DNA from: Dehalococcoidales bacterium
GTDB lineage: Bacteria; Chloroflexota; Dehalococcoidia; Dehalococcoidales; RBG-16-60-22
Assembly: GCA_030606585.1 (NCBI GenBank)
Contig: JAUWGD010000001.1
Span: 1-42,662 of the forward strand
Reading direction: 5' to 3'
Length of the DNA stretch: 42,662 nt
Made by a program: the position numbers and the translations under genes. A model generated the notes under the pieces. It was given only the letters and a program-made list of their open reading frames with translations. It made no database searches and had not been told where the DNA came from. Position 1 is the first letter of the stretch. Every line of letters begins with the position of its first letter. This document shows, piece by piece, positions 9,325 to 24,308 of the stretch.

Positions 9325-10000
9325 TGCTTTCTCCCGTAACAGTCTCTGCTTTACTCATAATCCTTCTCGGCCTGGGAATCGCCCGGAAATTCCGGGGAGG
9401 GTAATACCGGCGCATCTTATCCAGCTGCTGTAGTCTTTCCAAACGCTGATAAATTAAAATCCAGGCGCAGTCCATATCTTTATTGGCCTCGCATTTTCCG
9501 TTCTTGACGCCGGCACAGGGGCCATTGAGTATGCCTTTGGTGCACCTTGTAATAGGACAGATGCCGCCGGTGTCTTCCAATCGGCACTCACCGCAGGCGG
9601 CGCAACGTTCATCCCAGACTCCTGACTCTTTGGTCATGCCCATGAAAGAGGTATTCACACCCGGCAACACCGGCATATCCGGGAGATATTCCGCTATAGC
9701 CTGCACCCCGATGCCGCAACCGAGAGACAGAATTACGTCCACGTCAGCCGTTTTTTCGCCAAGCGCCTCCAGGAATTCAGGGTCACACTGCCTTTTCACA
9801 GTATGTTCGGAAAAGGTATGAGCCCCTTCTCCGCTCCTCGCCTGTGCCAGCTGTAACGCATTATGGAGAAAGGAGACCTCACGCTCGCCGCCGGCATCGC
9901 AAACCGTCATGCAGGTGCCACAACCGAGTATTAATACCCGTTCATAAGGGACAATCATTCGTATGATATCTTCCAGAGGTTTTTGTTCCGCGACTATCAA
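9317..10000 (-). CDS. metV: MTHFR C-terminal-domain FeS/zinc protein (MetV-like)
   Basis: Cys-rich, with CGTC...CAACGEC...CPITRCTKGILNGPCAGVKNGKCE (the NGPC(G/A)G signature of the MTHFR_C family). It overlaps its neighbours at both ends. Confidence 0.75.
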   Translation of the reverse strand: MIVAEQKPLEDIIRMIVPYERVLILGCGTCMTVCDAGGEREVSFLHNALQLAQARSGEGAHTFSEHTVKRQCDPEFLEALGEKTADVDVILSLGCGIGVQAIAEYLPDMPVLPGVNTSFMGMTKESGVWDERCAACGECRLEDTGGICPITRCTKGILNGPCAGVKNGKCEANKDMDCAWILIYQRLERLQQLDKMRRYYPPRNFRAIPRPRRIMSKAETVTGESNG

Positions 10001-12105
10001 CTTTTCACCTCCCCCTTTATTACTGAGGCTAAACGGAGAGAACCTATCTGTTCGACGAACTTGTCCAGTTCCTCGACAGGGTCTTCCGTGGTGGTGCCGA
10101 GGGCGAAAACCTGGAGTCGTTCGGGCTCGAGACCGATTGACCCCAGTACCTTTCTAACCTTCGCCACGCGTTGTTGTACCCAGTAGGTGGTATTTTCCCG
10201 GGCACATTGTTCGCCGCAACCGGCGATGAAGACTCCTTCGGCACCTGTCTCAAAGGCGGATAGTATGTGAGATGCCTCTACCTTGGCTACGCAGAGAACC
10301 GGTACGATACTGACGCCCGCCCCGGCTCCCCTCCATAGATCGGCCAGAGTGCCGGTACCGAAGAGTCCGTACTGGCAGCAGAAACCAATGATAAGCGGCT
10401 TGTTTTTCAGTTCGGCAGCCGATTTTATAGCGTGACTAAGCTCATCATTCACCTGGCGTCGGTCGAACGGCTTTCTTAAGACTATCGCCTTGGCAGGGCA
10501 CTCGGCCACGCATATACCGCAAGCCTGGCACTGGTCAGCAGGTATGCAGATGGCACCGCTGGCGTCCAGATGAGGCACGTGATAAGGACATACTCTCAGG
10601 CAGGTAAGGCAGGTGGCACACTTATCTTGAAACAGGATTTCCACACCAACGCCGCACCGCAGACACCTTCGGGCTTCATTGATAGCCTGTTCCCAGCTAT
10701 ATACGAGTTCTATCGGCTCGAAGTCTCTTGCCCTGACTTCGCTTGCCAGACTCGGCGGCTCAGCTCGCTCTATCTTCTTTATCATCTCTATTGTTTCCGG
10801 CAAAAGGTCTCCGCTTAACTTTTCCTTAGCCTCTTTGACGGGCAGTGGGTACCGGTGCTGGAGGTAATCAACGATGCGGAGCGCCGCGAGTCTGCCGGCC
10901 GCTAACGCCTCGGTTACCGTAGCCGGTCCGGTAACGGCGTCACCCCCGGCAAAAACCCCGGCTCTGTTGGTGGTAAGTGTATTCGGGTCGACCTGAATCG
11001 TGCTACCCTTGCCAATGCGGACCCCAAAATCGTCGGGGGTCTGAGGCGCCTGTCCAATAGCTGCGATGAGGGTATCAATTTGCTCGCTGAATTTGCTGCC
11101 CTTGACCGGCACGGGCCTCTGCCGGCCACTCTCGTCAGGCTTACCGAGCTTCATTTTAATGCAGGTTACATTCAACCTCTTGTTTTCTCTCTTGACCTTG
11201 GTGGGTGTTACCAGGTACCTTATGTCTATTCCTTCTTCCAGTGCTTGCTCAATCTCTGCGGGGTCGGCAGGCATCTCCGCGCGGGTACGGCGGTAAAGGA
11301 TGCTTACCTTTTTTACGCCCAGACGGATTGCCGTACGCGCCGCATCAATGGCTACATTACCCCCTCCCACCACGGCCACCTTTCTTCCCAGCGATGGCTT
11401 CAATCCGAGGTTAACCTCGCGGAGAAAGGTGGCTCCGTCTATTACCCCGGGACTTTCCTCTCCCTCTATCCCCATTCTGAGGCTTTGATGGGCACCGATA
11501 GTAATAAAAATAGCCTTATAGCCCAGCTCAAACAGCAGGTCCAGGGATACTACCCGGGTATCCGTCCTGATTTCAACGCCCATGCGTGTTAATCTCTTGA
11601 CCTCAATATCCAAGACTTCGCGCGGGAGCCGGTACTGGGGAATGCCGACGCGGAGCATACCTCCCAGTTCCGAGTGAGCTTCGAGGACCGTTACAGGATA
11701 GCCGAATTTTTTCAGGTAGTAAGCACAGGCTAAGCCGGCCGGCCCAGAGCCTACGATGGCAACCTTCTCTGCATGCGTGGTTTCGGCTTCAGCCTGGACC
11801 ATCCTGTCGCCGCCGAATTCCACGGCGAACCTCTTCAGCGAACGGATGGCGATGGGTTTATCTACCTGGGAACGCCGGCAGGCATCTTCACAGGGATGAG
11901 TGCAAACGTAGGCGCAGATAGATGGGAACGGATTGCCCGTCCTGATGACCTGTAAAGCCTCCATAATCCTGCCCTGAGAAACCAGACCTACGTATTCTCT
12001 GATATCCATATGCAGGGGGCAGGCATCCTGGCAGGGAGGTACCAGGCTATGGTCCGGAACGTTCTCCGTGCGATTTACAGGGTAGCTCGTATTAGCAACA
12101 TTCAT
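9997..12105 (-). CDS. NfnB/GltD-like FAD/NAD(P) flavoprotein fused to a 2x[4Fe-4S] ferredoxin domain and an MvhD domain
   Basis: N-terminal Cys-rich GltD-type domain (PPCQDACP...CTHPCEDAC), a VAIVGSGPAGLACAYYL dinucleotide fold and a second GGGNVAIDAART fold. These are followed by CLRCG...CLTCLRVCP and CQACGICVAECP, then the MvhD-like segment IIGFCCQYG...VPVLCVAKV...VFIAGCGEQC. Confidence 0.8.
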   Translation of the reverse strand: MNVANTSYPVNRTENVPDHSLVPPCQDACPLHMDIREYVGLVSQGRIMEALQVIRTGNPFPSICAYVCTHPCEDACRRSQVDKPIAIRSLKRFAVEFGGDRMVQAEAETTHAEKVAIVGSGPAGLACAYYLKKFGYPVTVLEAHSELGGMLRVGIPQYRLPREVLDIEVKRLTRMGVEIRTDTRVVSLDLLFELGYKAIFITIGAHQSLRMGIEGEESPGVIDGATFLREVNLGLKPSLGRKVAVVGGGNVAIDAARTAIRLGVKKVSILYRRTRAEMPADPAEIEQALEEGIDIRYLVTPTKVKRENKRLNVTCIKMKLGKPDESGRQRPVPVKGSKFSEQIDTLIAAIGQAPQTPDDFGVRIGKGSTIQVDPNTLTTNRAGVFAGGDAVTGPATVTEALAAGRLAALRIVDYLQHRYPLPVKEAKEKLSGDLLPETIEMIKKIERAEPPSLASEVRARDFEPIELVYSWEQAINEARRCLRCGVGVEILFQDKCATCLTCLRVCPYHVPHLDASGAICIPADQCQACGICVAECPAKAIVLRKPFDRRQVNDELSHAIKSAAELKNKPLIIGFCCQYGLFGTGTLADLWRGAGAGVSIVPVLCVAKVEASHILSAFETGAEGVFIAGCGEQCARENTTYWVQQRVAKVRKVLGSIGLEPERLQVFALGTTTEDPVEELDKFVEQIGSLRLASVIKGEVKS

Positions 12106-12320: not shown

Positions 12321-12974
12321 TTATATCGTTATAATTCGCTTGCGAATGGCATATTTAATAAGGTCGGTCCGGCTGTGTATGTTCAGTTTCTTCATCAGGC
12401 TGTTTTTATACCACTCCACCGTCTTGGGGCTGACGATAAGTATACCGGCGATTTCCCGGCTGGTATGTCCTTCCGCAACGAGTTTAAGCACTTCCCTTTC
12501 CCGGTCAGTTAGCTGCTGATACGGGTCCTGTTCCCCTTCCGATGGTATTTTCTGCTGGTATTCCTCAACAAGAGCCGTGGCGGCTGTAGAAGACAGGTAG
12601 GACTCCCCGTTGTAGGCTGCCTCAATGGCTGCAGCAAGTTCTGAAAATGCCGACATCTTGGTAACAAAGCCGCTGGCACCCGCTTCTATGATAGGGATAA
12701 CATATTCGCTATCGTCATACTGTGTCAGTGCCAGCACTTTAATCGCCGGGAATTCTTTTCGCAGGCGGCGCGTGGCTTCCAAACCGCCCATAACCGGCAT
12801 GGCCAGGTCCATGAGTACCACGTCGGGCATGAGATGCCGTACCTTTCCCAGGGCTTCTTTTCCGTCTGATGCCTCGCCGACCACTTCGATATCTTCAACA
12901 AGCGCCAGCAGGGAACTGATTCCGGCCCTGACGAGTGTATGGTCGTCGACTATCAGCACCTTAATTTTCTTCAT
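12321..12974 (-). CDS. NarL/LuxR-family response regulator (REC + HTH)
   Basis: KVLIVDDH...VLMDLAMPVMGG...LTQY receiver, followed by LTDREREVLKLVAEGHTSREIA...SPKTVEWYK, a LuxR-type HTH. Confidence 0.9.
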   Translation of the reverse strand: MKKIKVLIVDDHTLVRAGISSLLALVEDIEVVGEASDGKEALGKVRHLMPDVVLMDLAMPVMGGLEATRRLRKEFPAIKVLALTQYDDSEYVIPIIEAGASGFVTKMSAFSELAAAIEAAYNGESYLSSTAATALVEEYQQKIPSEGEQDPYQQLTDREREVLKLVAEGHTSREIAGILIVSPKTVEWYKNSLMKKLNIHSRTDLIKYAIRKRIITI

Positions 12975-12977
12975 GTG

Positions 12978-14597
12978 TTAAATTCCCATCAGCGGAACTT
13001 TCACGGTTACTTTGGTACCCTGCCCCGGTCGGGAGTCAATATGGCAGTGGCCTCCGGCCAGGCTTACCCTCTCCTTGAGGGTGAACAAACCAGCACCCCG
13101 GCCGCTGGGGTCCACGCGGGTCAGTTTTTTTACATCGAAGCCTTTGCCATCGTCCTCAATATACAGCATACACTCTTTTTCATCACATTCCAGTTTGATG
13201 AAGGTATTCTTCGCCCCGGAATGTTCGAGGATGTTGCCGATTAATCCCTGGGCGACGCGGAAAAGGGTAACCTCTACTTCCGGGGGGAACCGTTCATCGG
13301 TACCCTTGAACTCTGCGGATACGTCAATTCCTTGAGATTGAAGCGTGTCCTTGGCATAGCGATGGATGGCCGCCGGCATACCAAGTTCGTCAAGCAGGCT
13401 GGGCCGGAGTTCCTTCATAAGCCGCACGATTTCATGACCGGCATGAACGGCAAAGGAGTGCGTCGTTCTAACCTTCTCCATGAATTCGGCATCTCCGATA
13501 CCCTTCATTTCCGCGATTGTCATAATAGCCTGAAGGCTCAGGGTCAGACTGGTAATTGCCTGGGAGGTTTCGTCGTGTAATTCACGAGCGATTCTCTTTC
13601 GTTCCTGCTCTTGTGCCGTCAGAGCGTGTTGCAGGAGAGCCCGATATCTTTCCCCGGCCTGCGCCAGTCGGTCGTACAGCGTTGCCTGCTCGATTGCCGT
13701 ACCCAGATAGTCGCCAATCGACTTGAGTAAAGAGACATCATCAGCCGCAAATCGATTTGCCATATGGCTGGCGATGTTCATCACTCCGGTAACCCTGTCC
13801 TTGGCCTTTAAGGGAATGCTGACAAATCCTCGGAGTCCCTCTGCCAGCACCACGTCAGGTCGGGTAATACGCGGGTCTTTAGAAATGTCCTCCACTATTA
13901 TAGGCTCGCCGAGTTCAGCCGCCTGCCCCGCGATACTCTCACCGAGCGAAACCTGTGTTTCTTCAATGTATTTAGCAGATAAGCCCCGTTGTACACGATA
14001 GCTCAGGTTTTTGGACTCTTCGTCGAAGAGCAGTATTCCTCCGATGTCGCTGTTAATAAGTTCCAGGACATTATCCAGGGCGGTTTTTAATATGGTATCC
14101 AGGTCGTATAGTCCGCTCACGGCACTGGAAATATGGTTCAACGCCAGAAGCTGATGATGCCTCCTTAGTATTTGAGTCTCCAGTTCCCTTTCCGCGGTGA
14201 CATCTCTCCTCAACTCGACTATCGCCCTGGTGTTTCCCTGTTTATCAAGAAGAGGATATGCCGTAATTTTAACGTAATTATGATTGCCATGTTGGGTGAC
14301 CGGATAAATAGCCGTTATCATGTTGCCGGTTTCAATCACCTGTCGCAGCGGGCAGTCCCATAAAGGCTCATGGCAGGGGCCATCCCGGTTATGAAAAACT
14401 TTGTAGCATAATTTACCTATAGGGGACCTGCTTTTCCCCTGATATTTGTTAAGCATAGCGGTGTTGGCGAACCCGACACGGTACTCGAGGTCGACTACCA
14501 GGAGCTCGTCTTCCACGGCATCAATTATTTCCTGCAGGTCGGCTTTCAACCCCGTATCTTTCGGTCTGGGCACTATCGGTTTTTTTATATTCGTCAC
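12978..14597 (-). CDS. soluble sensor histidine kinase: Cys-rich PAS + GAF + HisKA_3 + HATPase
   Basis: H-box ERKRIARELHDETSQ; N/G boxes (NILEHSGA, DDGKGF, GRGAGL); N-terminal PAS with CYKVFHNRDGPCHEPLWDCP. No TM segments are evident. Confidence 0.9.
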   Translation of the reverse strand: MTNIKKPIVPRPKDTGLKADLQEIIDAVEDELLVVDLEYRVGFANTAMLNKYQGKSRSPIGKLCYKVFHNRDGPCHEPLWDCPLRQVIETGNMITAIYPVTQHGNHNYVKITAYPLLDKQGNTRAIVELRRDVTAERELETQILRRHHQLLALNHISSAVSGLYDLDTILKTALDNVLELINSDIGGILLFDEESKNLSYRVQRGLSAKYIEETQVSLGESIAGQAAELGEPIIVEDISKDPRITRPDVVLAEGLRGFVSIPLKAKDRVTGVMNIASHMANRFAADDVSLLKSIGDYLGTAIEQATLYDRLAQAGERYRALLQHALTAQEQERKRIARELHDETSQAITSLTLSLQAIMTIAEMKGIGDAEFMEKVRTTHSFAVHAGHEIVRLMKELRPSLLDELGMPAAIHRYAKDTLQSQGIDVSAEFKGTDERFPPEVEVTLFRVAQGLIGNILEHSGAKNTFIKLECDEKECMLYIEDDGKGFDVKKLTRVDPSGRGAGLFTLKERVSLAGGHCHIDSRPGQGTKVTVKVPLMGI

Positions 14598-14675: not shown

Positions 14676-15797
14676 TTATACCGTTAGCTCCACAGTAATA
14701 CTAGTCCCTTTATCGGGTTGAGATTGTACCGTTAGTGTGCCGCCTGCCAGCTGGGCACGTTCCTGCATCCCTGTTAAGCCAAGTTTGCCGTTCTTGGCCA
14801 GGTCGCCTATCTTCTCGGGAAGGCGAAAGCCCTTGCCATTATCGGTGATGGTTATTCTTGCCTTGTCCTTGTCGAACTCAACTGTCATTTCAGCTTTGGT
14901 AGCACCGGAGTGTCGCCATACGTTTCTCAGGGCTTCCTGAGTTATGCGGAAGAGAGCTATTGCCGTTTCTTCCGAGAGGCGGCGTTCTTCACCTATGACC
15001 TTGACCTCGGCTTCTATTGCCGAGTGTTCGGTCATGTTAGAGGCCAGCCACTCCAGCGCCGGCAGCAGTCCCAAACGATCCAGCGCTGCCGGTCGCAGGT
15101 CCTGACTCAAACGGCGAACCCCCCGCAGGATGTTATCAGTCTGCTGCCATAACTCTTCCAGGCGGAGCCGGTTCTCTTCGGACAGTCCTTTTTCACCGGA
15201 AGCGAGAGAGTCCAACTGGCGGGAAAGCACCACCAGAGCCTGAATAGTATCATCGTGCAGCTCATGGGAGATACGCTTTCTTTCTTCTTCCTGGGCTCGG
15301 GTGGCCTGCTGTAAATAATAGCGAAGGTTTTGTTGCATCGCACTTAGTTCTTCAGCAATCTTTTGCTGCTCCCGCCGGGCTACTTCCATCTGTGTGCGGT
15401 ATTCTCGCTCTTTTCGTAGTGATGCGAAACTAATGGCTAATACGTTGCCAATGACAAAAACGGCGCTGGTTTCAAAAAGGGCGTCCAGCGGATGTGGCGA
15501 GATAAAGATGGCCCGGGGTAACATGGCGGCGAGAGCGGCCAGTGAAGTGATTAAGGCCCCCCTCCAGCCAAACAGGAAACCTGCCCACACTATCGGTGCC
15601 AGACAGAGGATTCTTTCAAAGGCATGTCTATCCAAGTTAAGATTATTGGTCAGCTGGCTGAGTAAAGCCGGGTACGCCAGAGCTTCCTCATAGTGGGCCA
15701 GCGTAATAAGCGCGAGTATGGCTAGAATAAACCAGAATCCCGGCCTTCGAAGGACACTCGTCAGCCAGTTTATTACTGAATATCGAGTTGCTGCCAT
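14676..15797 (-). CDS. membrane sensor histidine kinase (about 4 TM + HisKA_3 + HATPase)
   Basis: Hydrophobic N-terminal 140 aa, H-box ERKRISHELHDDTIQ, and an ATPase domain with DNGKGF...GLTGMQERA. Confidence 0.85.
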   Translation of the reverse strand: MAATRYSVINWLTSVLRRPGFWFILAILALITLAHYEEALAYPALLSQLTNNLNLDRHAFERILCLAPIVWAGFLFGWRGALITSLAALAAMLPRAIFISPHPLDALFETSAVFVIGNVLAISFASLRKEREYRTQMEVARREQQKIAEELSAMQQNLRYYLQQATRAQEEERKRISHELHDDTIQALVVLSRQLDSLASGEKGLSEENRLRLEELWQQTDNILRGVRRLSQDLRPAALDRLGLLPALEWLASNMTEHSAIEAEVKVIGEERRLSEETAIALFRITQEALRNVWRHSGATKAEMTVEFDKDKARITITDNGKGFRLPEKIGDLAKNGKLGLTGMQERAQLAGGTLTVQSQPDKGTSITVELTV

Positions 15798-15824: not shown

Positions 15825-16490
15825 TCAGGCCACATCGTCAAGGGTAACCCAGCCCTCTTTCAAGGCATGCACTACGGCTTCGGTTCGCGAACTGACCTGC
15901 AATTTGTTAAAGATATGTCCCAGGTGCGCCTGGACCGTACGCAAGCTGAGAAAAAGCTCATCGGCAATCTCCTGGTTGCTCAAGCCCCGGGTTGCCAACC
16001 GGAGTACTTCCGTCTCTCGCTCGCTCAGTACCTCCGCTTGTTTTTTTTCGGTTGTTTTACCAACGGTGGGTACGAAGCGATTCAGCACTTTACGGGCAAT
16101 CGCCGGATGCAGTACTGACTCCCCGGCGTATACCTGCCGTACGGCATCAATGAGCTCTTTGCCCCGAACGCTTTTTAGCAGGTAACCGGCCGCTCCAGCC
16201 TCTAAAAGCCCGAAGACGAACTGGTCATCATCATAAGCCGTAAGTATCAGCACGGCCACGGCAGGATAAAGTGCCTTGATTTGTCGGGTGGCTTCAATGC
16301 CATCTACTACGGGCATGGCTATGTCGATGATGGCGACGTCCGGTCTGGAACTACCGGCTAATTTTACCGCTTCCTCGCCGTTTACAGCCTCAGCAACAAC
16401 GTTCAGGTCCGCTTCCTGCTCCAGAATCTGCCGCGTACCCTCCCGCACCACGGCATGGTCATCGGCTATTAATATCTTTATCTTACCCAT
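15825..16490 (-). CDS. NarL/LuxR-family response regulator
   Basis: KILIADDH...IIDIAMPVVDG...LTAY receiver plus LSERETEVLRLATRGLSNQEIADELFLSLRTVQAHL HTH. Confidence 0.9.
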   Translation of the reverse strand: MGKIKILIADDHAVVREGTRQILEQEADLNVVAEAVNGEEAVKLAGSSRPDVAIIDIAMPVVDGIEATRQIKALYPAVAVLILTAYDDDQFVFGLLEAGAAGYLLKSVRGKELIDAVRQVYAGESVLHPAIARKVLNRFVPTVGKTTEKKQAEVLSERETEVLRLATRGLSNQEIADELFLSLRTVQAHLGHIFNKLQVSSRTEAVVHALKEGWVTLDDVA

Positions 16491-16590
16491 ATGATATACG
16501 CCTTTTCACCCGGGTATTATTACATTAATCATACACCCTGACGATTAAGTACTCAATCGTTATAATTACCTAATACACAATCCACGCATG

Positions 16591-16606
16591 TAGGTATTAA
16601 TACCTA
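16591..16606. promoter_or_regulatory. perfect 16-bp palindrome TAGGTATTAATACCTA made of NarL-like heptamers; candidate response-regulator operator
   Basis: It lies in the divergent region between the RR gene (start 16490) and the microprotein operon (start 16701). TACCTAT fits the NarL heptamer TACYYMT. A further TACCTAC lies at 16650..16656, next to a TATACT -10-like hexamer (16664..16669). Confidence 0.4.
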
Positions 16607-16700
16607 TGATTTTAAGGTTAGAAATAGGTGTCATGGCGGAAGTTAAATTTACCTACATAGAGCTATACTGAGAGTAGAGATAAGAAAGGAGATAAGAACG

Positions 16701-16871
16701 ATGCAGTGGGAGTTTTTAGTAGCACTGGTAATTGCGATACCCATTATCCTCTTCCCGGTAGCATTTATCTGGTATATAAACATCGGTGGTATCGTTGCCG
16801 CCATCAAAGATGCTCGGACAGCAAGGGTTATCCGCGAGAAGAAGGTGGCGGGAGCGACCAAGATTAAGTAA
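16701..16871 (+). CDS. single-pass membrane microprotein, copy 1 of 3 (56 aa)
   Basis: Below the track size cut-off, so translated by hand: MQWEFLVALVIAIPIILFPVAFIWYINIGGIVAAIKDARTARVIREKKVAGATKIK. AAGGAG lies 8 nt upstream. Clear paralog of the next two ORFs. Confidence 0.6.
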   Translation: MQWEFLVALVIAIPIILFPVAFIWYINIGGIVAAIKDARTARVIREKKVAGATKIK

Positions 16872-16923
16872 CCATGACACGGCAAGGAAGCGATAAAAGT
16901 ATTTAAGAAGGAGTAAAGGAATA

Positions 16924-17139
16924 ATGGAATGGCAGATTATACTAGCTTTAGCAGTGGCAATACCCATCATCCTCTTACCGGTAGCATATGTCTGGTATAT
17001 AAACATCGGTGGTACCGTTGCCGCTATAAAGCGTGCCAGAGAGAAACGTGTTACCCGGAGAGAGGGCAGCCCGGAGCATGAAGTGGAGTACAACACAGCC
17101 CTTACCGAGGCAATCAAGCGATATCCCTGGGATGAATAA
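16924..17139 (+). CDS. single-pass membrane microprotein, copy 2 of 3 (71 aa)
   Basis: MEWQIILALAVAIPIILLPVAYVWYINIGGTVAAIKRAREKRV..., with GAAGGAG upstream. Confidence 0.65.
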   Translation: MEWQIILALAVAIPIILLPVAYVWYINIGGTVAAIKRAREKRVTRREGSPEHEVEYNTALTEAIKRYPWDE

Positions 17140-17196
17140 TAGCGGTTCGGTAAATAATATGTTTCGTTGGGAGAAATTTTAAGGAGGGCTAATAAA

Positions 17197-17367
17197 ATGG
17201 AATGGCAGATTATAGTGGCTCTGGTAGTAGCAATCCCCATCATTCTTTTCCCGGTGGCATTCGTCTGGTATCTGAATGCCGGTGGTATCTACACTGCCGT
17301 CAAGGAAGCTCGAGCGAGACGAGTCGCCCGGGAAAAAGATGCCAAAGAAAGGATAAAAGTGAAGTAA
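17197..17367 (+). CDS. single-pass membrane microprotein, copy 3 of 3 (56 aa)
   Basis: MEWQIIVALVVAIPIILFPVAFVWYLNAGGIYTAVKEARARRVAREKDAKERIKVK. The start is moved to the ATG preceded by AAGGAGGG at 8-nt spacing, since the track call starts at an upstream TTG. Confidence 0.65.
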   Translation: MEWQIIVALVVAIPIILFPVAFVWYLNAGGIYTAVKEARARRVAREKDAKERIKVK

Positions 17368-17413
17368 ATCGTGCTTAATAAGTTAACAGTATCAGGGAGG
17401 AAGGAGCCGATTT

Positions 17414-18295
17414 ATGAAATTGAACCGTAGAACTTTCTTGAAAGTCTCGGCAGGGACAACCGGCCTTATATTGTTAAATAAACCGAAAAAATCTTCCGCG
17501 AGTGATACCCCAAATAAATCGGGTAAAGCGGTACTGGTAGATACCTCAAAGTGTGTAGGCTGCTGGTGGTGCTATGCCGCCTGTAAGCATGCCCACAACT
17601 TACCCGAAACAATCAGACCTGATAAAGAACATCCGCCGGAGCTTGATTCTAATATCTTGACGACCCTGAGTACCATGAAGAATGGCGACGAATGGCTCTA
17701 CGCCAAGCGTCAGTGCATGCACTGCGAGTACCCGGCCTGTGTGACCGCCTGCCCGGTGGGCGCTCTACAGAAGACACCGGAAGGACCGGTTATCTATGAC
17801 AGTAGTAAATGCTTCGGGTGCCGTTACTGCATGGTGGTCTGCCCGTTTGGCGTGCCCGACTTTGAATGGGAAGACCCTACCCCATGGATATGCAAGTGTG
17901 ATTTTTGTACCGACCGCCTGGCAGCGGGACTGGAACCGGCCTGTGTGGATGCCTGCACCACGGGTGCTCTTAAGTTAGGTAATCGAGAGGAACTCATCGC
18001 CGAGGCCAGAGAACGCATCGCGGCCGAACCGGGTAAGTACATAGACCACATCTACGGAGAGAAAGAGGCGGGTGGCACTTCGTGGCTGTATCTCTCCACT
18101 ATTCCCCTGGAAAAGATAGGATTTCCTTCTCTGGAATCCAAGCCGGTGACCCTTGACGCTGAACGCGCCATGGGTGCCGTTCCGCCGGTGCTCCTAGGTG
18201 TGGCGGCAGCTATGTCCAGTATCTTCTGGCTCGTTAAACGACGTAATCAAATGAGTCAGGAAAAACCCGGAGATAAGAAGGAGGGCAGAAAATGA
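17414..18295 (+). CDS. Tat-exported four-cluster [4Fe-4S] protein with C-terminal TM anchor (HybA/NrfC/DmsB-like)
   Basis: Twin-arginine signal MKLNRRTFLKVSAGTTGLILL. Four Cys groups (CVGCWWCYAAC, CMHCEYPACVTACP, CFGCRYCMVVCP, CDFC...CVDAC). Hydrophobic C-terminal helix VPPVLLGVAAAMSSIFWLV. Confidence 0.85.
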   Translation: MKLNRRTFLKVSAGTTGLILLNKPKKSSASDTPNKSGKAVLVDTSKCVGCWWCYAACKHAHNLPETIRPDKEHPPELDSNILTTLSTMKNGDEWLYAKRQCMHCEYPACVTACPVGALQKTPEGPVIYDSSKCFGCRYCMVVCPFGVPDFEWEDPTPWICKCDFCTDRLAAGLEPACVDACTTGALKLGNREELIAEARERIAAEPGKYIDHIYGEKEAGGTSWLYLSTIPLEKIGFPSLESKPVTLDAERAMGAVPPVLLGVAAAMSSIFWLVKRRNQMSQEKPGDKKEGRK

Positions 18296-19113
18296 CCTTA
18301 GCCGTGCTGTACGACGCTAATAAATGCATCGGCTGCCGGGGATGTCAGGTAGCCTGCAAGCAGTGGAATGAGAATGACGAGTTCATACCCACTGAGGAAA
18401 ACGGGGTGCAGTCGAAGAACTGGGGCAGCAATGAAAATCCGCCTCAATTGTCCGCCCGTACCTGGACGAAGATACGCTTTACGGAACTGGATTATAACGG
18501 TAAATTTCACTGGGTCTTTACCAAGCTCCAGTGCATGCACTGCGAGCACCCGGCCTGTGTGACAGCCTGCCCGGTGGGCGCTTTAGAGAAGACACCGGAA
18601 GGACCGGTTATCTATGACGATACCAAATGCTTCGGGTGCCGTTACTGCATGTTGGCCTGTCCCTTCGGGATACCTTCCTTCGAGTGGGACAGCCCCCTGC
18701 CCTGGATTCGTAAGTGCACCTTCTGCGCGGACCGTTTAGGCGCGGGATTGGAACCAGCCTGTGTTCAGACCTGCCCTACCAAAGCGCTTAAATTGGGGGA
18801 GCGGGAAGAATTAATAGCAGAAGCCCGGGAGCGTATCAACACTTCTCCCGATAAATATATAAATCACATCTACGGAGAGAACGAGGTGGGCGGCACATCA
18901 TGGCTGTATCTCTCTCCAGTGCCCTTTGAAATGATAGGGCTGCCGACTCTCGGGTCCGAGCCGGTGACCCTTGACGCCGAACGCGCTATGGGTGCCGTTC
19001 CGCCGGTCCTCATGGGGGTGGCGGCGGCTATGTCCGGTATTTACTGGGTCATCAAACGACGTGAGCGTATCAGCCGTGAAAGAACCGAGGAGAAAGAAGA
19101 GGTAACGAAATGA
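18292..19113 (+). CDS. four-cluster [4Fe-4S] protein, paralog of 17414..18295 but without a signal peptide; C-terminal TM anchor retained
   Basis: Starts MTLAVLYDANKCIGCRGCQVAC with no Tat motif. It has the same four Cys groups and the VPPVLMGVAAAMSGIYWVI helix. ATGA overlaps occur at both ends. Confidence 0.85.
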   Translation: MTLAVLYDANKCIGCRGCQVACKQWNENDEFIPTEENGVQSKNWGSNENPPQLSARTWTKIRFTELDYNGKFHWVFTKLQCMHCEHPACVTACPVGALEKTPEGPVIYDDTKCFGCRYCMLACPFGIPSFEWDSPLPWIRKCTFCADRLGAGLEPACVQTCPTKALKLGEREELIAEARERINTSPDKYINHIYGENEVGGTSWLYLSPVPFEMIGLPTLGSEPVTLDAERAMGAVPPVLMGVAAAMSGIYWVIKRRERISRERTEEKEEVTK

Positions 19114-20276
19114 TGCCCAAAAAACATTCATTTCCTGTCGGCACCTTTATTCTGAGCATCCTGGTTGTCGTTGGTCTGGCGGTAGTGATTTATAGATACA
19201 TCTACGGACTGGGTGCCATCAGTAACCTGAGTGACGGCCGTGCCTGGGGCCTGTGGATAAGTTTCGACCTTTATTGCGGCGTGGCACTGGCGGCGGGCGG
19301 CTTCACCCTGGCTGGCGCCGTTTATATCTTTAACCTTAAAAAGTATCGTTCCGTGGTGAGGCCGGCTATCCTGACCGCCTTCCTGGGCTATACGCTGGTA
19401 ATCCTGGCTCTGCTGGTTGACCTGGGACATCCCTGGTACATCTGGCATATCATCATTAACTGGAACGTTCATTCGCCGCTGTTTGAAGTAGGTATGTGCG
19501 TCATGTTTTATACGGCAGTGCTGGCCCTCGAGTTTAGCCCGGCGGTATTTGAAGGCTTAAGTAAAAGCAACCTCCCGGTCGTCAGGCACATCAACTGGCA
19601 TTTCCCCTGGCGTGTCATCCGGGCAATTCAGATACCCCTGGTAATCGCCGGCGTTGTCCTTTCCACACTGCATCAGTCCTCACTGGGGTCGATGCTGCTG
19701 ATGATGCCGGAAACATTACACGAACTATGGTACACACCAATCCTGCCGATACTGTTCCTCATTTCAGCCGTAGCCGTAGGTCCGGCCATGGTCATCTTCG
19801 AGTCGACCCTCAGCACCAGAGTCTTCGGCCATAAGTTAGACATTGATGTGCTAAGCGGTTTAGCCAGGGTTATTCCCTACATCCTGGGGCTTTACCTTCT
19901 ATTGAAAGTGATTGAACTGACGGCGGTGGGAGAACTGGGACTCATCTTTACCGCATACCCGCAGAACCTGCTGTGGTGGGGTGAAATTATCATCGGGGTT
20001 ATAGTGCCCATCATCCTCTTCTCGATGTCCGATGTGAGGCAAAACCGGAGCGCCGTATTCTGGACTTCAGTTCTGATCATCATTGGGCTGGTAATTAATC
20101 GCTTCAACGTGAGCATGCTGGCGCTGGGCATGCGCCCGGGTTATTTTTACTTCCCTCACTGGATGGAGTTTGCCGTCTCGGTGGGTCTGGTTGCCGACGC
20201 CTTACTCGTCATCTGGCTGGCCCACCGGTTCCTGCCGATTGCCCACCAAGAGCAAATAGTGGAGGCTGAAATTTAA
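19110..20276 (+). CDS. NrfD/HybB/PsrC-family integral membrane protein
   Basis: 388 aa with 8 or more hydrophobic segments. The motif GLGAISNLSDGRAWGLWISFDLYCGVALAAGGF is typical of the NrfD/HybB/DsrP family. Confidence 0.85.
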   Translation: MMPKKHSFPVGTFILSILVVVGLAVVIYRYIYGLGAISNLSDGRAWGLWISFDLYCGVALAAGGFTLAGAVYIFNLKKYRSVVRPAILTAFLGYTLVILALLVDLGHPWYIWHIIINWNVHSPLFEVGMCVMFYTAVLALEFSPAVFEGLSKSNLPVVRHINWHFPWRVIRAIQIPLVIAGVVLSTLHQSSLGSMLLMMPETLHELWYTPILPILFLISAVAVGPAMVIFESTLSTRVFGHKLDIDVLSGLARVIPYILGLYLLLKVIELTAVGELGLIFTAYPQNLLWWGEIIIGVIVPIILFSMSDVRQNRSAVFWTSVLIIIGLVINRFNVSMLALGMRPGYFYFPHWMEFAVSVGLVADALLVIWLAHRFLPIAHQEQIVEAEI

Positions 20277-21001
20277 TGAGCAAAGCCGCTTTTAAGCCGT
20301 TCATCTTGCCCTTACTCCTGTTAATATGTGCTCTGTTCTATTACTTCGGAGAACTGGTGGACTGGGCCACCTGGAATGCTCTGCGCAAGAATTTCTTCTA
20401 CGGAGTTCATGACATACACCGCCTGTTGTTCCTGATACCGATAATCTACGCCGCTTACACCGCCAGAGTTAAAGGGGCGATTATCATGACGCTGGTAAGT
20501 CTCGCCATTTTCCTGCCGCGGGCTTTTTTCGTCTCTCCCTATCCCGACCCGTTACTCAGAATGATAATTTTCACTCTGGGAGCCGGTGTTATAGGCTACC
20601 TCGTAGCGAGGATTCGTAATGAAGGGGAAAAATCCCGGCAGTTGGAGGTTATGATAACCATTGAAAGGGATAAGCTACGAAAAATTGTAGGTGGCATGGC
20701 AGATGGTATTATCATCACTGGCCAGGATTACAGGATACGTTTTATGAATTCAAAAATGGTGGATGCTTTTGGTGAGGGTACTGGCCTCCCCTGCTATAAA
20801 CTCCTGCGTGATATTGATGCCCCGTGTCAACAGGAATGCCACATACCAGACGTGATTCACGATAAACACATCAGAAAGTGGGAATGTAGCTTTCCATCTG
20901 GTAAAACCTACGAAATATTGGCGGCACCCTACGTTGATTCCGATGAAACAGTTTGTCAAATTTCCATATTCAGGGACATCACAAAGCGCAAGAATAATTA
21001 G
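20276..21001 (+). CDS. membrane-anchored Cys-rich PAS sensor protein without a kinase or other output domain
   Basis: The N-terminal about 110 aa membrane domain resembles that of HK 14676..15797 (LPRAFFVSPYPDPL vs LPRAIFISPHPLDAL). The C-terminal PAS resembles that of HK 12978..14597 (PCYKLLRDIDAPCQQEC vs LCYKVFHNRDGPCHEPLWDC). The start overlaps the NrfD stop (TAATG). Confidence 0.7.
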   Translation: MSKAAFKPFILPLLLLICALFYYFGELVDWATWNALRKNFFYGVHDIHRLLFLIPIIYAAYTARVKGAIIMTLVSLAIFLPRAFFVSPYPDPLLRMIIFTLGAGVIGYLVARIRNEGEKSRQLEVMITIERDKLRKIVGGMADGIIITGQDYRIRFMNSKMVDAFGEGTGLPCYKLLRDIDAPCQQECHIPDVIHDKHIRKWECSFPSGKTYEILAAPYVDSDETVCQISIFRDITKRKNN

Positions 21002-21079: not shown

Positions 21080-21193
21080 GGAGTGAAGGTATGAACCCCG
21101 AATGGGTTATCAGGATTATCCTTTTTGGCATAGCCCACTGGATACTGGCCGGGTTCTTACTCAATGATTTAGCATCAAGACAGAAGGTGTTCG
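21080..21193 (+). repeat. direct repeat copy 1 (RBS and first about 35 codons of the PLDc_N-like gene)
   Basis: Aligns by eye with 25974..26079 at roughly 85-90 percent identity, with a 9-nt gap in copy 2. Confidence 0.8.
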
Positions 21194-21306
21194 GGCGCCG
21201 TAAAGCGCCGTGGGTAATAGTTGTAATAATAATCCCCTGCTTCGGCTCGATATTATACCTGCTGTTCCATCCCCAGATTTTCCATCCGGATGATAACCAG
21301 AAGTAA
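21091..21306 (+). CDS. small two-TM membrane protein, PLD-nuclease N-terminal (PLDc_N)-like
   Basis: 71 aa with the pattern W...L.D......K..W.......P..G...YL typical of the PLDc_N small proteins. Confidence 0.55.
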   Translation: MNPEWVIRIILFGIAHWILAGFLLNDLASRQKVFGRRKAPWVIVVIIIPCFGSILYLLFHPQIFHPDDNQK

Positions 21307-21501: not shown

Positions 21502-22971
21502 CTAGACGAGTGAACCTCCCGATGGTGATACTCCATTCGGATCAAGTGCTTCTGTAATTTTCTGCCACCATAAATGGTAATTTAATAGAGCTGGTCCGAT
21601 TTCATCTTGTGGTCCCATTGTCGATGCGAAGTAGCGTTCAGTAAAAGCCCTCCTATTCTGCTCTTTTTGCCACCCTTCTACGGCTGCCTTGGCTTCAGGG
21701 TTGCCGGGATCGAACTTGCAGAATATTTCCGTTTTACCAAGATGCCCCTGTTCAACTCCCCATCCAAAAAAGGCCCCGCCATCATCCACTATATAGCCCT
21801 TTTCTATCAAGGGCTCCTTCGCTTTGCCGGCTCCTATCGCCCACTTGATGGTCAAGTCTCTCTGGCCCATGATAGGAATTGAATTAAAGGCTCCGCCGTT
21901 ACGGAATGTCTCCCTGATGGAGGCGGAGATTCTGGTGCACTGGCACATCAGAATTCCTTCTATCCTGGGGTCTTCGACCGCCTTTAAAGACTTCCCGTCA
22001 TTTTCACTGACAATCTTCTCTAATACTCGTTGCTTGTATTCGAAGTCTGCCGGAGTGTCGCCGACTACGATTACGAAGAAGCCGGGCCCCTGCACTTCCT
22101 TGTTCAGGCGGTTGAAGGTCTCCTCTTCTTCTTCATTGCTTGTCGTGATATTCGCAGCTACCATTGAAATGTTAAAGCCCATCAACTCGAAACATATTTC
22201 ACTTTCACCTATCTTGAGCTCCGCCTGCCACATCTTTTCTACTGACGGGAAGCTGAAATACCGTGCCATCATGTTCGGCGGTATCTCGCTCAGGGAGTAA
22301 TGCGGTGATATCCCCTCGACCGGGTAGGCAGAAGGCCCCGACCAGTGATAAAGCTTTACTGCAGCCTTCGTAAACACACCCGGCGTTACGCCCGGCGGCA
22401 CGGCACTGGTAAGTATGCTCCTCAAAGACGGACCCGGTCCGTCACCACAGAACCACTCATCCGAAGACCCCAGCGAACCTGACCTGACTATGTCCCCTTC
22501 AGGAGTTATCCATTCTATAGCCAGATGGTTTCGGTCATCACCACTTGTGGTTTGATCCATATGTCCGTGACCCCTGAGCATTGCCGTACAGTTAGTCCCG
22601 GCCCCCTTTATGCAAAAATTCAAGCCCCTTTTCATTAGCTCAGCTTGTAGCTGTGACGAGATTACATACGGCTCAACCACGGCATACATGTTTTTCTCGT
22701 TGATTTCAATTATACGGTTCATCCTTCTCAGGTCTAACAAGATAATACCCGGAGGGAACATCCCCGTCCAGCCGGTGCATATGGGTCTGAATTGCATCTT
22801 GTGTTTGTTGCACAGCTTAACTATCGCTTGAACTTCCGCCGTGTTCCCCGGAAGAATTACGGCAGCGAACTCAGTCGAGAAATACGCAGGCATTATTGCC
22901 GGGTCATTACAGATATTTTCCTCTCCCACCACATCTTCGAATTCCTTATATACTTCTTTGTTTAAAGCCAT
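21502..22971 (-). CDS. FAD-binding (PCMH-type) oxidoreductase, GlcD/GlcE-like
   Basis: 489 aa. The N-terminal FAD_binding_4-like region (AAVILPGNTAEVQAIVKLCNKHKMQFRP...) is divergent. Confidence 0.7.
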   Translation of the reverse strand: MALNKEVYKEFEDVVGEENICNDPAIMPAYFSTEFAAVILPGNTAEVQAIVKLCNKHKMQFRPICTGWTGMFPPGIILLDLRRMNRIIEINEKNMYAVVEPYVISSQLQAELMKRGLNFCIKGAGTNCTAMLRGHGHMDQTTSGDDRNHLAIEWITPEGDIVRSGSLGSSDEWFCGDGPGPSLRSILTSAVPPGVTPGVFTKAAVKLYHWSGPSAYPVEGISPHYSLSEIPPNMMARYFSFPSVEKMWQAELKIGESEICFELMGFNISMVAANITTSNEEEEETFNRLNKEVQGPGFFVIVVGDTPADFEYKQRVLEKIVSENDGKSLKAVEDPRIEGILMCQCTRISASIRETFRNGGAFNSIPIMGQRDLTIKWAIGAGKAKEPLIEKGYIVDDGGAFFGWGVEQGHLGKTEIFCKFDPGNPEAKAAVEGWQKEQNRRAFTERYFASTMGPQDEIGPALLNYHLWWQKITEALDPNGVSPSGGSLV

Positions 22972-22990
22972 GATTCATTAACCCCCTTTC

Positions 22991-24259: not shown

Positions 24260-24308
24260 CTCCGTTCCCTCCTAAATTTATTCAATGATGAATTTCTATT
24301 ATCCATGG

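What the first reader, a model, noticed from the sequence alone, without database searches (positions are those of the whole stretch)
16701..17367. Three tandem paralogous single-pass membrane microproteins heading the FeS/NrfD operon
Three consecutive small ORFs (56, 71 and 56 aa) each have their own strong RBS. The first is invisible in the ORF track. All share an almost invariant N-terminal TM segment, M(E/Q)W(Q/E)(I/F)(I/L)(V/L)AL(V/A)(V/I)AIPIIL(F/L)PVA(F/Y)(V/I)WY(I/L)N(I/A)GG, followed by divergent, strongly basic tails (AIKDARTARVIREKK / AIKRAREKRVTRRE / AVKEARARRVAREKD). Conservation is at the protein level, while third-codon positions differ, so they look expressed and selected. I cannot assign them to a known family. 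Their position directly upstream of Tat-FeS, FeS and NrfD genes suggests small accessory or anchor subunits, or assembly factors, of a membrane redox complex. The long minus-strand ORFs across this region (16649..16885, 16716..17243) are shadows of the repeat.
Basis: seen in the sequence. Interest (0 to 1): 0.7.

Follow-up and report, generated by a model that had tools for sequence, protein, structure and literature searches.

The report
Regulated tandem membrane microproteins of Dehalococcoidia
Three real, strongly conserved genes for tiny single-helix membrane proteins belong to an unannotated family found only in Dehalococcoidia; the family travels with its own promoter, operator and two-component sensor, not with any one respiratory enzyme.

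Summary
Three co-directional ORFs (16701-16871, 16924-17139, 17197-17367) each have a Shine-Dalgarno site. Each encodes an N-out/C-in single-pass microprotein with a near-identical TM helix and a basic tail. They are under purifying selection (orthologue dN/dS about 0.12).

They belong to a large unannotated family: about 1850 clusters at 90% identity and 489 at 50%, all from Dehalococcoidia/Chloroflexota, with no Pfam, NCBIfam or literature match.

The interpretation as FeS/NrfD subunits is only partly supported. Elsewhere the same microproteins head HdrABC/MvhADG-like, Fdh-like molybdoenzyme and NuoEF-like operons, or operons with no enzyme. Related HybA/NrfD operons exist without them.

The constant features are:
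- a conserved promoter box plus a 7-2-7 palindrome (window 16591-16606);
- a divergent NarL-type response regulator;
- sensor proteins whose only input is a shared 4-TM domain.

Copies 1 and 2 are ancient position-specific paralogues. They are sometimes fused through a linker TM, or fused to a flavoenzyme. This points to a hetero-oligomeric membrane docking module.

My best reading (about 0.4) is regulator-induced adaptor microproteins that partner with the 4-TM sensors. Anchoring of redox enzymes is the close rival.

The parts
16591..16606 (.). Perfect 7-2-7 palindrome TAGGTAT-TA-ATACCTA, the predicted operator of the divergent NarL/LuxR-type response regulator.
   Evidence: It is the only match in the 42.6-kb window, even allowing 2 mismatches. 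The same motif, TA[AG]G[CT]AT-WW-AT[AG]C[CT]TA, scores >=9/10 in 35 of 40 regulator-microprotein intergenic regions, against 0.42 expected from shuffles. It also scores >=9/10 in 24 of 42 microprotein upstream regions that have no adjacent regulator gene. That the regulator binds it is inferred by analogy with NarL heptamers.
16622..16642 (+). Conserved promoter box AAATAGGTGTCATGGCGGAAG: a third TAGGTRT heptamer (16625-16631) followed by GGCGGAAG (16635-16642).
   Evidence: GGCGGAAG (<=1 mismatch), preceded by the consensus AAATAGGTATCAC, is present upstream of 64 of 79 first microprotein genes, against 8.25 expected. The distance from the box to the ATG peaks at 65-69 nt; in the window it is 66 nt.
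16664..16669 (+). Predicted -10 hexamer TATACT. The inferred transcription start is near 16676, leaving a leader of about 25 nt.
   Evidence: 46 of the 64 box-bearing loci have an extended -10 (TGnTAnnnT) 14-38 nt after the box. The window copy lacks the TG. The transcription start is inferred, not measured. No Rfam family matches in 16300-17600.
16701..16871 (+). Microprotein 1 (56 aa): MQWE, then a TM helix (about residues 5-27), the WYINIGG motif and a basic tail. It is the copy-1 type.
   Evidence: The family HMM scores 104 bits. The Shine-Dalgarno site AAAGGAG is at 16685-16691. AlphaFold2 with 55 homologues gives one helix over residues 3-55, pLDDT 83.
16924..17139 (+). Microprotein 2 (71 aa): the same module plus a C-terminal extension, EYNTALTEAIKRYPWDE.
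   Evidence: HMM 99 bits. The Shine-Dalgarno site AAGGAG is at 16908-16913. The extension subtype recurs in L026, L029 and L038, including all three loci that carry the Tat-HybA gene.
17197..17367 (+). Microprotein 3 (56 aa), the copy most similar to the family consensus.
   Evidence: HMM 117 bits. The Shine-Dalgarno site AAGGAGG is at 17181-17187. The family alignment places the start at ATG 17197 rather than TTG 17167.
15825..16490 (-). Divergent response regulator (REC + LuxR/GerE helix-turn-helix, 221 aa).
   Evidence: Pfam and NCBIfam. Orthologues that are 74-91% identical lie divergently and immediately upstream of the microproteins in 38 of 77 clusters with enough flank.
14676..15797 (-). 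Histidine kinase (373 aa): a 4-TM N-terminal domain, HisKA_3 and HATPase, with no other input domain.
   Evidence: Pfam gives HisKA_3, HATPase_c and a weak MASE1 match over residues 25-126. Sequence. Recurs next to the regulator in related loci.
17414..18295 (+). HybA/HmcB-like 4x[4Fe-4S] protein with a Tat signal and a C-terminal TM anchor.
   Evidence: Present in only 3 of the related loci.
18292..19113 (+). Second HybA/HmcB-like FeS protein, without a Tat signal and with a C-terminal TM anchor.
19110..20276 (+). NrfD/HybB/HmcC-like integral membrane subunit (388 aa).
20276..21001 (+). 4TM-PAS protein (241 aa). Its membrane domain is homologous to that of the kinase. Its PAS domain is cysteine-rich, and it has no output domain.
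   Evidence: 35% identity to the kinase N-terminus, E=3e-16. PAS_8 match. 572 homologues, all Dehalococcoidales/Chloroflexota, one of them carrying DUF4118. 20 of 23 such genes lie downstream of microprotein genes in the same direction, and 10 are immediately adjacent to one.

Best explanation
The three ORFs are genuine genes of a Dehalococcoidia-specific family of N-out/C-in single-pass membrane microproteins. Each has an acidic or neutral 4-residue N-terminus. The TM helix carries an AxxxA motif, two prolines and a WYxNxGG juxtamembrane motif. An Arg/Lys-rich cytoplasmic helix follows.

They are the promoter-proximal genes of a regulon unit. That unit consists of a 7-2-7 palindrome, a conserved promoter box, the microproteins, and then a variable cargo operon. 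The unit is driven by a dedicated NarL/LiaR-class two-component system whose kinase has only a 4-TM membrane domain as input.

I propose that the position-specific paralogues (types 1 and 2, with a third here) assemble into a small hetero-oligomeric TM bundle. This bundle would act as a membrane docking and adaptor module. Its most likely partner is the shared 4-TM domain of the kinase and of the 4TM-PAS protein. By docking there, the regulator-induced microproteins would feed the expression state of the operon back to the sensor. Where the module is fused to a flavoenzyme or Cys-rich domain, it would carry that redox domain to the sensor. This is analogous to small membrane proteins that modulate intramembrane-sensing kinases.

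Shown: the genes are real and under selection; the topology follows the charge rule; the family is widespread; the promoter and operator are conserved; paralogy is position-specific; natural fusions exist.

Inferred: the regulator binds the palindrome; the copies form a hetero-oligomer; they contact the 4-TM sensor domain; the contact gives feedback or co-sensing.
For: Reality and selection:
- About 1850 homologues at 90% clustering and 489 clusters at 50%.
- Orthologue dN/dS of 0.12, with the sense frame best of all six frames.
- The TM segment is more constrained than the tail (pN 0.08 against 0.25). That is unusual for a mere anchor and suggests specific helix-helix contacts.

Regulatory unit:
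- The palindrome is present in 35 of 40 regulator-adjacent and 24 of 42 non-adjacent upstream regions.
- The promoter box is present in 64 of 79 upstream regions against 8.25 expected.
- The palindrome is unique in the window.

Link to signalling:
- 34 of 44 fully flanked clusters have the regulator, kinase or 4TM-PAS protein within 5 kb.
- 8 clusters have only signalling genes and no enzyme, for example L012, L029, L067 and L073.
- An additional microprotein gene, with its own operator, sits directly before the 4TM-PAS gene when that gene follows NrfD (L027, L036, L065, L075).
- The kinase has no input other than 4 TM helices, and shares that domain with the PAS protein.
- The flavoenzyme that is fused to the module in L001 occurs fused to a receiver domain next to a microprotein gene in L052.

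Hetero-oligomer:
- The nearest relative of a copy 1 in other loci is a copy 1 in 47 of 49 cases, and of a copy 2 a copy 2 in 41 of 49.
- Natural fusions of the form module-linker TM-module, sometimes with a further linker TM and module, preserve N-out/C-in topology for every module.
Against: - No physical interaction could be tested. AlphaFold2 of a natural double-module fusion gave low confidence (pLDDT 66.5, pTM 0.30), so it says nothing about packing.
- Association with redox genes is about as frequent as association with signalling genes: 32 of 44 clusters. 6 clusters have redox genes and no two-component system within 5 kb.
- The module is a plain N-terminal anchor for a 558-aa flavoenzyme and for Cys-rich domains. 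This fits a generic anchor role equally well.
- At least one locus has the regulator-kinase pair next to HybA/NrfD with no microprotein (L096), so the sensor can work without them.
- No expression data are available.
Confidence: 0.4

Rival explanations
1. Generic membrane tether or accessory subunit for the co-expressed redox enzymes. The TM bundle anchors or organises otherwise soluble or weakly anchored modules at the membrane through the basic tail. Candidate cargo includes HdrABC/MvhADG-like, NuoEF-like and flavoenzyme modules, and the HybA tail anchors. The two-component system merely regulates the operon.
For: - 32 of 44 fully flanked clusters have redox genes within 5 kb, and 6 have redox genes but no two-component system.
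- The microproteins head operons for soluble complexes that have no other membrane subunit.
- The module is naturally fused as the N-terminus of a Pyr_redox_2 flavoenzyme inside an Hdr/Mvh-type operon, and to Cys-rich or zinc-ribbon domains.
- The tail-extension subtype occurs in all 3 loci that carry the Tat-HybA gene.
Against: - 8 clusters have no enzyme gene in or near the operon.
- The cargo is too diverse for one conserved TM sequence to recognise.
- The tail, the presumed cargo-binding part, is the less conserved part.
- Related HybA/NrfD operons lack the microproteins.
- One extension-subtype locus (L029) has no HybA gene.
Confidence: 0.3
2. One reading: dedicated small subunits or assembly factors of the Tat-FeS/FeS/NrfD complex encoded directly downstream.
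For: - They sit in the same apparent operon in the window.
- HybA/NrfD is the most common single cargo type, present in 24 of about 79 loci.
Against: - Most family members are not next to NrfD.
- The reverse search from NrfD found the microproteins in only a few close relatives and in none of about 58 more distant HybA/NrfD loci.
- The Tat-HybA gene is present in only 3 related loci.
Confidence: 0.07
3. Stand-alone effectors of the regulon. On this reading the microproteins are membrane-active small proteins induced by the two-component system. They would act on the membrane itself or on unlinked complexes, for example by stabilisation, ion leak or pore formation, or modulation of transporters. 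The first small membrane protein of the LiaRS regulon is a comparable case.
For: - They are the first and best conserved target of the promoter/operator.
- Some loci contain the regulator-kinase pair plus two microproteins and nothing else co-directional (L067, L073).
- Oligomer-forming features are present: AxxxA, prolines, and a conserved Asn and Trp.
Against: - The microproteins are regularly in operons with specific redox cargo.
- Fusions to enzymes argue for a docking role.
- There is no polar pore-lining face apart from E2/Q4 and N27.
Confidence: 0.12
4. Not functional proteins at all. The region would instead be an untranslated leader, a DNA repeat, a type I toxin cassette, or translation-arrest or monitoring peptides.
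For: - Tandem small hydrophobic ORFs in an intergenic-looking stretch.
- Long antisense ORFs overlap them.
Against: - Purifying selection in the sense frame only.
- Strong Shine-Dalgarno sites.
- Hundreds of homologue clusters with conserved length.
- Position-specific orthology.
- Fusion to enzymes.
- No Rfam match.
- The conserved part is the TM helix, not a C-terminal arrest motif.
Confidence: 0.03

Closest known systems
Small membrane-protein modulators of sensor kinases (MgrB-PhoQ, SafA-PhoQ, MzrA-EnvZ)
   Same: Single-pass proteins of about 50 aa. Their expression is placed under the cognate response regulator. The kinase perceives them within or at the membrane. Their genes sit next to, or in the regulon of, the two-component system.
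   Different: - No sequence similarity (Pfam and NCBIfam negative).
- Here there are 2-3 anciently diverged tandem paralogues.
- They lead large redox operons.
- They occur fused to enzymes.
- Interaction with the kinase has not been shown.
LiaFSR/LiaIH-type systems (HisKA_3 kinase plus LuxR-type regulator, intramembrane sensing, with a small membrane protein as first target gene)
   Same: The same two-component class: HisKA_3 with REC-GerE, with weak NCBIfam similarity to LiaS and MadRS. The kinase has essentially only TM helices as input. Accessory and target membrane proteins are encoded alongside.
   Different: The 4-TM domain here resembles DUF4118/MASE1 rather than the 2-TM LiaS domain. 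The cargo is redox enzymes, not envelope-stress proteins. There is no homology to LiaF or LiaI.
Small TM subunits or anchors of respiratory enzymes (RdhB of reductive dehalogenases, NapE/TorE, CcoQ, CydX)
   Same: Tiny hydrophobic proteins encoded in respiratory operons. They often go unannotated, and they act as anchors or stabilisers.
   Different: - Those proteins are each tied to one enzyme family, whereas this family moves between unrelated cargo operons.
- No homology was detected.
- RdhB has 2-3 TM helices and sits next to rdhA, whereas the rdhA-like gene of the window lies 9 kb away.
TatA/TatE
   Same: A superficially similar layout: a short N-out tail, one TM helix, a glycine hinge and a cytoplasmic helix. 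In the window they precede a Tat substrate.
   Different: - No match to the TatA Pfam model, even at E<=10.
- The TM helix is about 23 residues, not short.
- The cytoplasmic helix is not amphipathic (hydrophobic moment 0.08-0.21).
- Most cargo operons of Hdr/Mvh type are not evident Tat substrates.

Membership tests
Any curated protein family (Pfam-A, NCBIfam) | A significant HMM match | tested here: not met
   No family matched the three window proteins at E<=0.01. At E<=10 over 55 members only compositional TM hits appeared (Sid-5, PsaM, Vpu and similar; best E 0.006), all below their thresholds.
TatA/TatE | A match to PF02416, and a short TM helix followed by an FG hinge and an amphipathic helix | tested here: not met
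   No PF02416 hit. The hinge is NxGG. The tail hydrophobic moment is 0.08-0.21 with a negative mean hydrophobicity.
NrfD/PsrC-type complex subunit | Obligate co-occurrence with the NrfD and HybA genes | tested here: not met
   HybA and NrfD are present in only 24 of about 79 loci. 12 of 44 fully flanked clusters have no redox gene within 5 kb. The reverse query found NrfD loci without the microproteins.
RdhB (reductive dehalogenase anchor) | About 90 aa, 2-3 TM helices, and a position immediately adjacent to rdhA | tested here: not met
   These proteins have a single TM helix and are 50-75 aa long. The nearest rdhA-like gene, 26119-27504, is 9 kb away on the other strand.
Small-protein modulators of sensor kinases (a functional class) | A single-pass small membrane protein | tested here: met
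   Hydropathy of 2.8-3.1 over residues 5-23, the charge distribution, and the AlphaFold2 helix.
Small-protein modulators of sensor kinases (a functional class) | Transcription under the cognate response regulator | tested here: inconclusive
   A conserved palindrome and heptamers of NarL type lie upstream of the genes. Binding by the regulator and activation by it are inferred, not measured.
Small-protein modulators of sensor kinases (a functional class) | Physical and functional interaction with the kinase | not testable with these tools
   Only genomic association is available. No multimer prediction tool was available.
Type I toxin or arrest peptide | An overlapping antisense RNA or a conserved C-terminal arrest motif, a lineage-restricted and unstable distribution, and no fusions to enzymes | tested here: not met
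   Conservation peaks in the TM helix, not at the C-terminus. Orthology is stable and position-specific. Fusions to enzymes exist.

The most novel reading that the evidence does not exclude
The microproteins are the intramembrane input and feedback subunits of a previously undescribed split sensor. The sensor would consist of the 4-TM kinase, the 4-TM Cys-rich PAS protein and a hetero-oligomeric microprotein bundle. Dehalococcoidia would use it to couple the assembly or redox state of their respiratory and hydrogen-cycling complexes to transcription. The module would also serve as a portable docking tag that brings redox enzymes to that sensor.
Probability: 0.2. Interest if true: 0.75.

Novelty: new variant of a known kind. 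Interest (0 to 1): 0.6.

Why it matters
Dehalococcoidia are abundant in sediments and aquifers and are important for dehalogenation. Their energy metabolism is poorly understood, and most of them cannot be grown or manipulated.

This family is invisible to standard annotation. Yet it is the best conserved first gene of a recurrent regulon that controls Hdr/Mvh-like, formate-dehydrogenase-like and HybA/NrfD-type operons. Three consequences follow:
- The family, its promoter box and its operator give a sequence handle for predicting which redox operons are co-regulated in these uncultured organisms.
- It offers a concrete candidate for how a kinase with no sensory domain receives its signal.
- It adds a sizeable, testable family to the growing list of functional bacterial microproteins.

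Tried and rejected
- **Pfam and NCBIfam scans,** including E<=10 over 55 members: nothing meaningful.
- **Rfam on 16300-17600:** no match.
- **Literature searches,** by topic and by motif strings such as WYLNIGG and AIPIILFP: no paper found.
- **TatA analogy:** rejected, because there is no HMM match and the tail is not amphipathic.
- **AlphaFold2 of microprotein 1:** a single long helix, which is uninformative beyond secondary structure.
- **AlphaFold2 of a natural module-TM-module fusion:** pLDDT 66.5 and pTM 0.30, so helix packing cannot be read from it. No fold search was attempted on these models.
- **Context look-up of a tail-extended relative (P0183):** only contigs under 1 kb.
- **Test of whether the gap between NrfD and the PAS gene hides diverged microproteins:** in L005 and L045 the gap encodes an unrelated soluble 60-aa protein. 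Only L063 has a diverged module there.
- **Sigma-54 promoter reading of the GGCGGAAG box:** rejected by inspection, because there is no GG-N10-GC spacing.
- **Type I toxin, arrest-peptide and DNA-repeat readings:** rejected on selection pattern, orthology and fusions.
- **Simple sigma-70 scan of the window region:** it missed the -10 inferred from the cross-locus comparison and returned only generic matches.
Full report
**Observation**

The region 16701-17367 holds three co-directional small ORFs on the + strand: 16701-16871 (56 aa), 16924-17139 (71 aa) and 17197-17367 (56 aa).

- Each has a Shine-Dalgarno sequence 9-10 nt before its ATG.
- The three proteins share 26 invariant positions out of 56, concentrated in residues 1-30.
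- The layout is a four-residue acidic or neutral N-terminus (M-E/Q-W-Q/E), then a very hydrophobic stretch of about 23 residues (Kyte-Doolittle 2.8-3.1).
- That stretch contains A8xxxA12, P14, P19 and W24-Y25. It is followed by N27-x-G29-G30 and an Arg/Lys-rich tail.
- By the positive-inside rule this is a reverse signal-anchor with the N-terminus out and the C-terminus in. It is not a cleavable signal peptide.
- AlphaFold2 with 55 homologues models one helix spanning residues 3-55, with pLDDT 83.
- The tail is charged rather than amphipathic.

**They are real genes**

- A profile of the three copies retrieves about 1850 clusters at 90% identity. All are hypothetical proteins from Chloroflexota or Dehalococcoidales, and most are 56-63 aa long.
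- An exhaustive profile search of 1.84 billion representatives gives 489 clusters at 50% identity. Nearly all are 50-100 aa, and the module is almost always the N-terminus of the coding region.
- In the species-representative genome set all 78 loci come from Dehalococcoidia/Chloroflexota metagenome-assembled genomes, with several loci per genome.
- Across 892 orthologue pairs the median dN/dS is 0.12. The window paralogues give 0.14-0.30. The TM segment is more constrained than the tail.
- Of the six reading frames, the sense frame has the lowest pN/pS (0.21). The antisense frames give 0.36-2.25.
- The long minus-strand ORFs are therefore shadows, even though such ORFs often stay open.
- No Pfam, NCBIfam or Rfam family and no paper in the searchable library matches.

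**Surroundings in the window**

- Downstream, with gaps of 46-57 nt between the microprotein genes, overlapping stop/start codons between the larger genes, and no terminator, lie four genes:
  - a Tat-signal HybA/HmcB-like FeS protein;
  - a second HybA paralogue without a Tat signal;
  - an NrfD/HybB/HmcC-like membrane protein;
  - a 241-aa protein made of a 4-TM domain and a cysteine-rich PAS domain.
- No catalytic subunit is encoded.
- Upstream and divergent lie a REC-LuxR response regulator and a HisKA_3 kinase. The kinase's only input region is a 4-TM domain.
- That domain is homologous to the membrane domain of the PAS protein (35% identity, E=3e-16). The pair therefore looks like a split sensor.
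- In other loci kinases of about 650 aa carry an insert between the two parts.

**What travels with the family**

I called genes in 83 related loci and marked family members with a local HMM. This gave 161 copies. Two or three tandem copies are the norm: 44 double, 8 triple and 33 single clusters, with some singles cut by contig ends.

The cargo behind the microproteins varies:
- HybA-NrfD-PAS, the window type;
- a Tat molybdoenzyme (often split in ORF calls by a UGA at a position where a Cys-containing homologue reads through, presumably selenocysteine) plus HybA plus NrfD;
- HdrC/HdrB/HdrA-like genes (HdrA likewise split at a UGA) plus MvhD/G/A-like hydrogenase;
- NuoE plus a NuoF-GltD fusion;
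- HycI plus a flavoenzyme-receiver fusion;
- just the 4TM-PAS gene.

Of 44 clusters with full flanks:

| Genes within 5 kb | Clusters |
|---|---|
| Regulator, kinase or PAS protein (all) | 34 |
| Redox genes (all) | 32 |
| Both | 26 |
| Signalling only | 8 |
| Redox only | 6 |
| Neither | 4 |

- The orthologous regulator (74-91% identical) is the immediate divergent neighbour in 38 of 77 clusters.
- Of 23 4TM-PAS genes, 20 lie downstream of microprotein genes in the same direction. Ten are directly preceded by one, including an extra internal copy inserted between NrfD and the PAS gene.
- A reverse search starting from NrfD found microproteins only in some of the closest relatives (L087, L089, L103, L107).
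- It found none in a 17-kb locus whose NrfD is 69% identical (L096), and none in about 58 loci with NrfD at 52% identity or less.
- The family is therefore not a core HybA/NrfD subunit.

**A dedicated promoter and operator**

- The regulator-microprotein intergenic regions share a 16-bp 7-2-7 palindrome, TA[AG]G[CT]AT-WW-AT[AG]C[CT]TA. It scores >=9/10 in 35 of 40 regions, against 0.42 expected.
- The window copy, TAGGTATTAATACCTA at 16591-16606, is the only match in 42.6 kb.
- The palindrome also precedes microprotein clusters that have no adjacent regulator gene (24 of 42). This includes the internal copies before the PAS gene.
- Downstream of it, 64 of 79 first-copy upstream regions carry the box AAATAGGTATCAyGGCGGAAG, against 8.25 expected by chance.
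- 46 of these have an extended -10 (TGnTAnnnT) 14-38 nt further on. The distance from the box to the ATG peaks at 65-69 nt.
- In the window the elements lie as follows: heptamer 16625-16631, GGCGGAAG 16635-16642, TATACT 16664-16669.
- This places the inferred transcription start near 16676, leaving a leader of about 25 nt. The palindrome then sits near -85 to -70 and the heptamer near -50.
- That geometry suits an activator. Binding and activation by the regulator are inferred by analogy with NarL heptamer sites.

**Clues to mechanism**

- The duplication is old and ordered. The nearest relative of a copy 1 in other loci is a copy 1 in 47 of 49 cases, and of a copy 2 a copy 2 in 41 of 49.
- Natural fusions join two or three modules through linker TM helices, so every module keeps N-out/C-in topology. 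This is a Rosetta-stone argument that the tandem products assemble with one another.
- The module also forms the N-terminus of a 558-aa Pyr_redox_2 flavoenzyme inside an Hdr/Mvh-type operon that is itself headed by free microproteins. It is fused to Cys-rich or zinc-ribbon domains as well.
- A Pyr_redox_2 flavoenzyme of the same domain type occurs fused to a receiver domain next to a microprotein gene in L052.
- A tail-extension subtype (EYNxALxEAIKRYPW), to which window copy 2 belongs, is present in all three loci with the Tat-HybA gene. It is also present in one locus with no HybA gene. The loci are closely related, so this is only a lead.

**Interpretation**

The tightest and most general associations are these:
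- the conserved operator and promoter;
- the NarL-type two-component system with its 4-TM input domain;
- the 4TM-PAS protein.

Cargo enzymes are interchangeable and sometimes absent. The TM helix is conserved far beyond what anchoring needs.

I therefore favour (about 0.4) regulator-induced, hetero-oligomeric docking microproteins that partner with the 4-TM sensor domains. They would provide feedback or co-sensing, and in fused forms would deliver redox domains to the sensor.

The close rival (about 0.3) is a generic tether or organiser for the co-expressed redox complexes. The two are not mutually exclusive. None of the proposed contacts could be tested here. AlphaFold2 of a natural fusion was too uncertain to read packing.

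**Comparison with known systems**

- Functionally, the nearest analogues are small membrane modulators of sensor kinases (MgrB, SafA, MzrA) and the LiaFSR/LiaIH arrangement. The latter has the same HisKA_3/LuxR class, intramembrane sensing, and a small membrane protein as first target gene.
- Small respiratory subunits such as RdhB, NapE, CcoQ and CydX are the analogues for the rival reading.
- There is no homology to any of these. The defining features of TatA, RdhB and an obligate NrfD-complex subunit were tested and not met.

**Verdict**

This is a real, well-supported and unannotated family with a distinctive regulatory cassette. Its function is unresolved but is narrowed to two testable models. 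Interest is moderate to high for small-protein and Dehalococcoidia specialists.

Noticed in passing
window 20276-21001 and 14676-15797: The 241-aa PAS protein and the 373-aa kinase share a homologous 4-TM N-terminal domain with the motif LPRAxFxSPxP (35% identity, E=3e-16). The PAS domain carries five cysteines and has no output domain. Together they look like a split redox sensor. Kinases of about 650 aa in other loci carry an insert between the membrane domain and the kinase core.
   Followed up: partly
window 21091-21306: A 71-aa two-TM protein (MNPEWVIRIILFGIAHW...PCFGSILYLLFHP) lies just after the PAS gene. Homologues of about 76 aa follow the PAS gene in 15 related loci. One of them is annotated with a SHOCT domain in L005.
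   Followed up: partly
window 18292-19113: The second HybA/HmcB-like FeS protein has no Tat signal but keeps the C-terminal TM anchor. Most related loci carry only this signal-less form. It may be exported by hitchhiking on a Tat partner, or it may face the cytoplasm. No catalytic subunit is encoded in the window operon.
   Followed up: no
L007 8608-11634; L001 9971-11932: In related loci the Tat molybdoenzyme (187 + 813 aa) and the HdrA-like protein (194 + 453 aa) are each split by an in-frame UGA. At the same position, Cys-containing homologues (972 aa in L013, 666 aa in L009) read through. These are probably selenocysteine codons.
   Followed up: partly
L052 2636-4387; L001 11979-13655: A Pyr_redox_2/Pyr_redox_dim flavoenzyme occurs fused to a C-terminal receiver domain in L052, next to a microprotein gene and HycI. 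In L001 a flavoenzyme with the same domains is fused to an N-terminal microprotein module.
   Followed up: partly
window 26119-27504 (-): A reductive-dehalogenase-like gene (461 aa, with Dehalogenase and Fer4 domains) lies 9 kb downstream. Next to it are two FAD-binding oxidase genes and a CCG-domain (HdrD/GlcF-like) gene at 21502-25775.
   Followed up: no
window 8422-12105 (-): A cluster of MTHFR, an MTHFR C-terminal domain protein, and a 702-aa fusion of Pyr_redox_2, Fer4 and an MvhD-like domain. It resembles the acetogen-type MetFV/HdrA/MvhD methylene-THF reductase arrangement.
   Followed up: no
window 12321-14597 (-): A second two-component pair (a PAS-GAF HisKA_3 kinase of 539 aa and a LuxR-type regulator of 217 aa) sits directly behind the first pair. 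L096 shows a similar doubling.
   Followed up: no
L005 10618-10800; L045 10348-10536: A conserved soluble ORF of about 60 aa (MKEWKKV.F..G..YA.GN.RK...) fills the gap between NrfD and the PAS gene in some loci. It is unrelated to the microprotein family.
   Followed up: no
window 41001-42000: GC content drops to 0.37 with a strong negative GC skew at the end of the window, against about 0.50 elsewhere.
   Followed up: no
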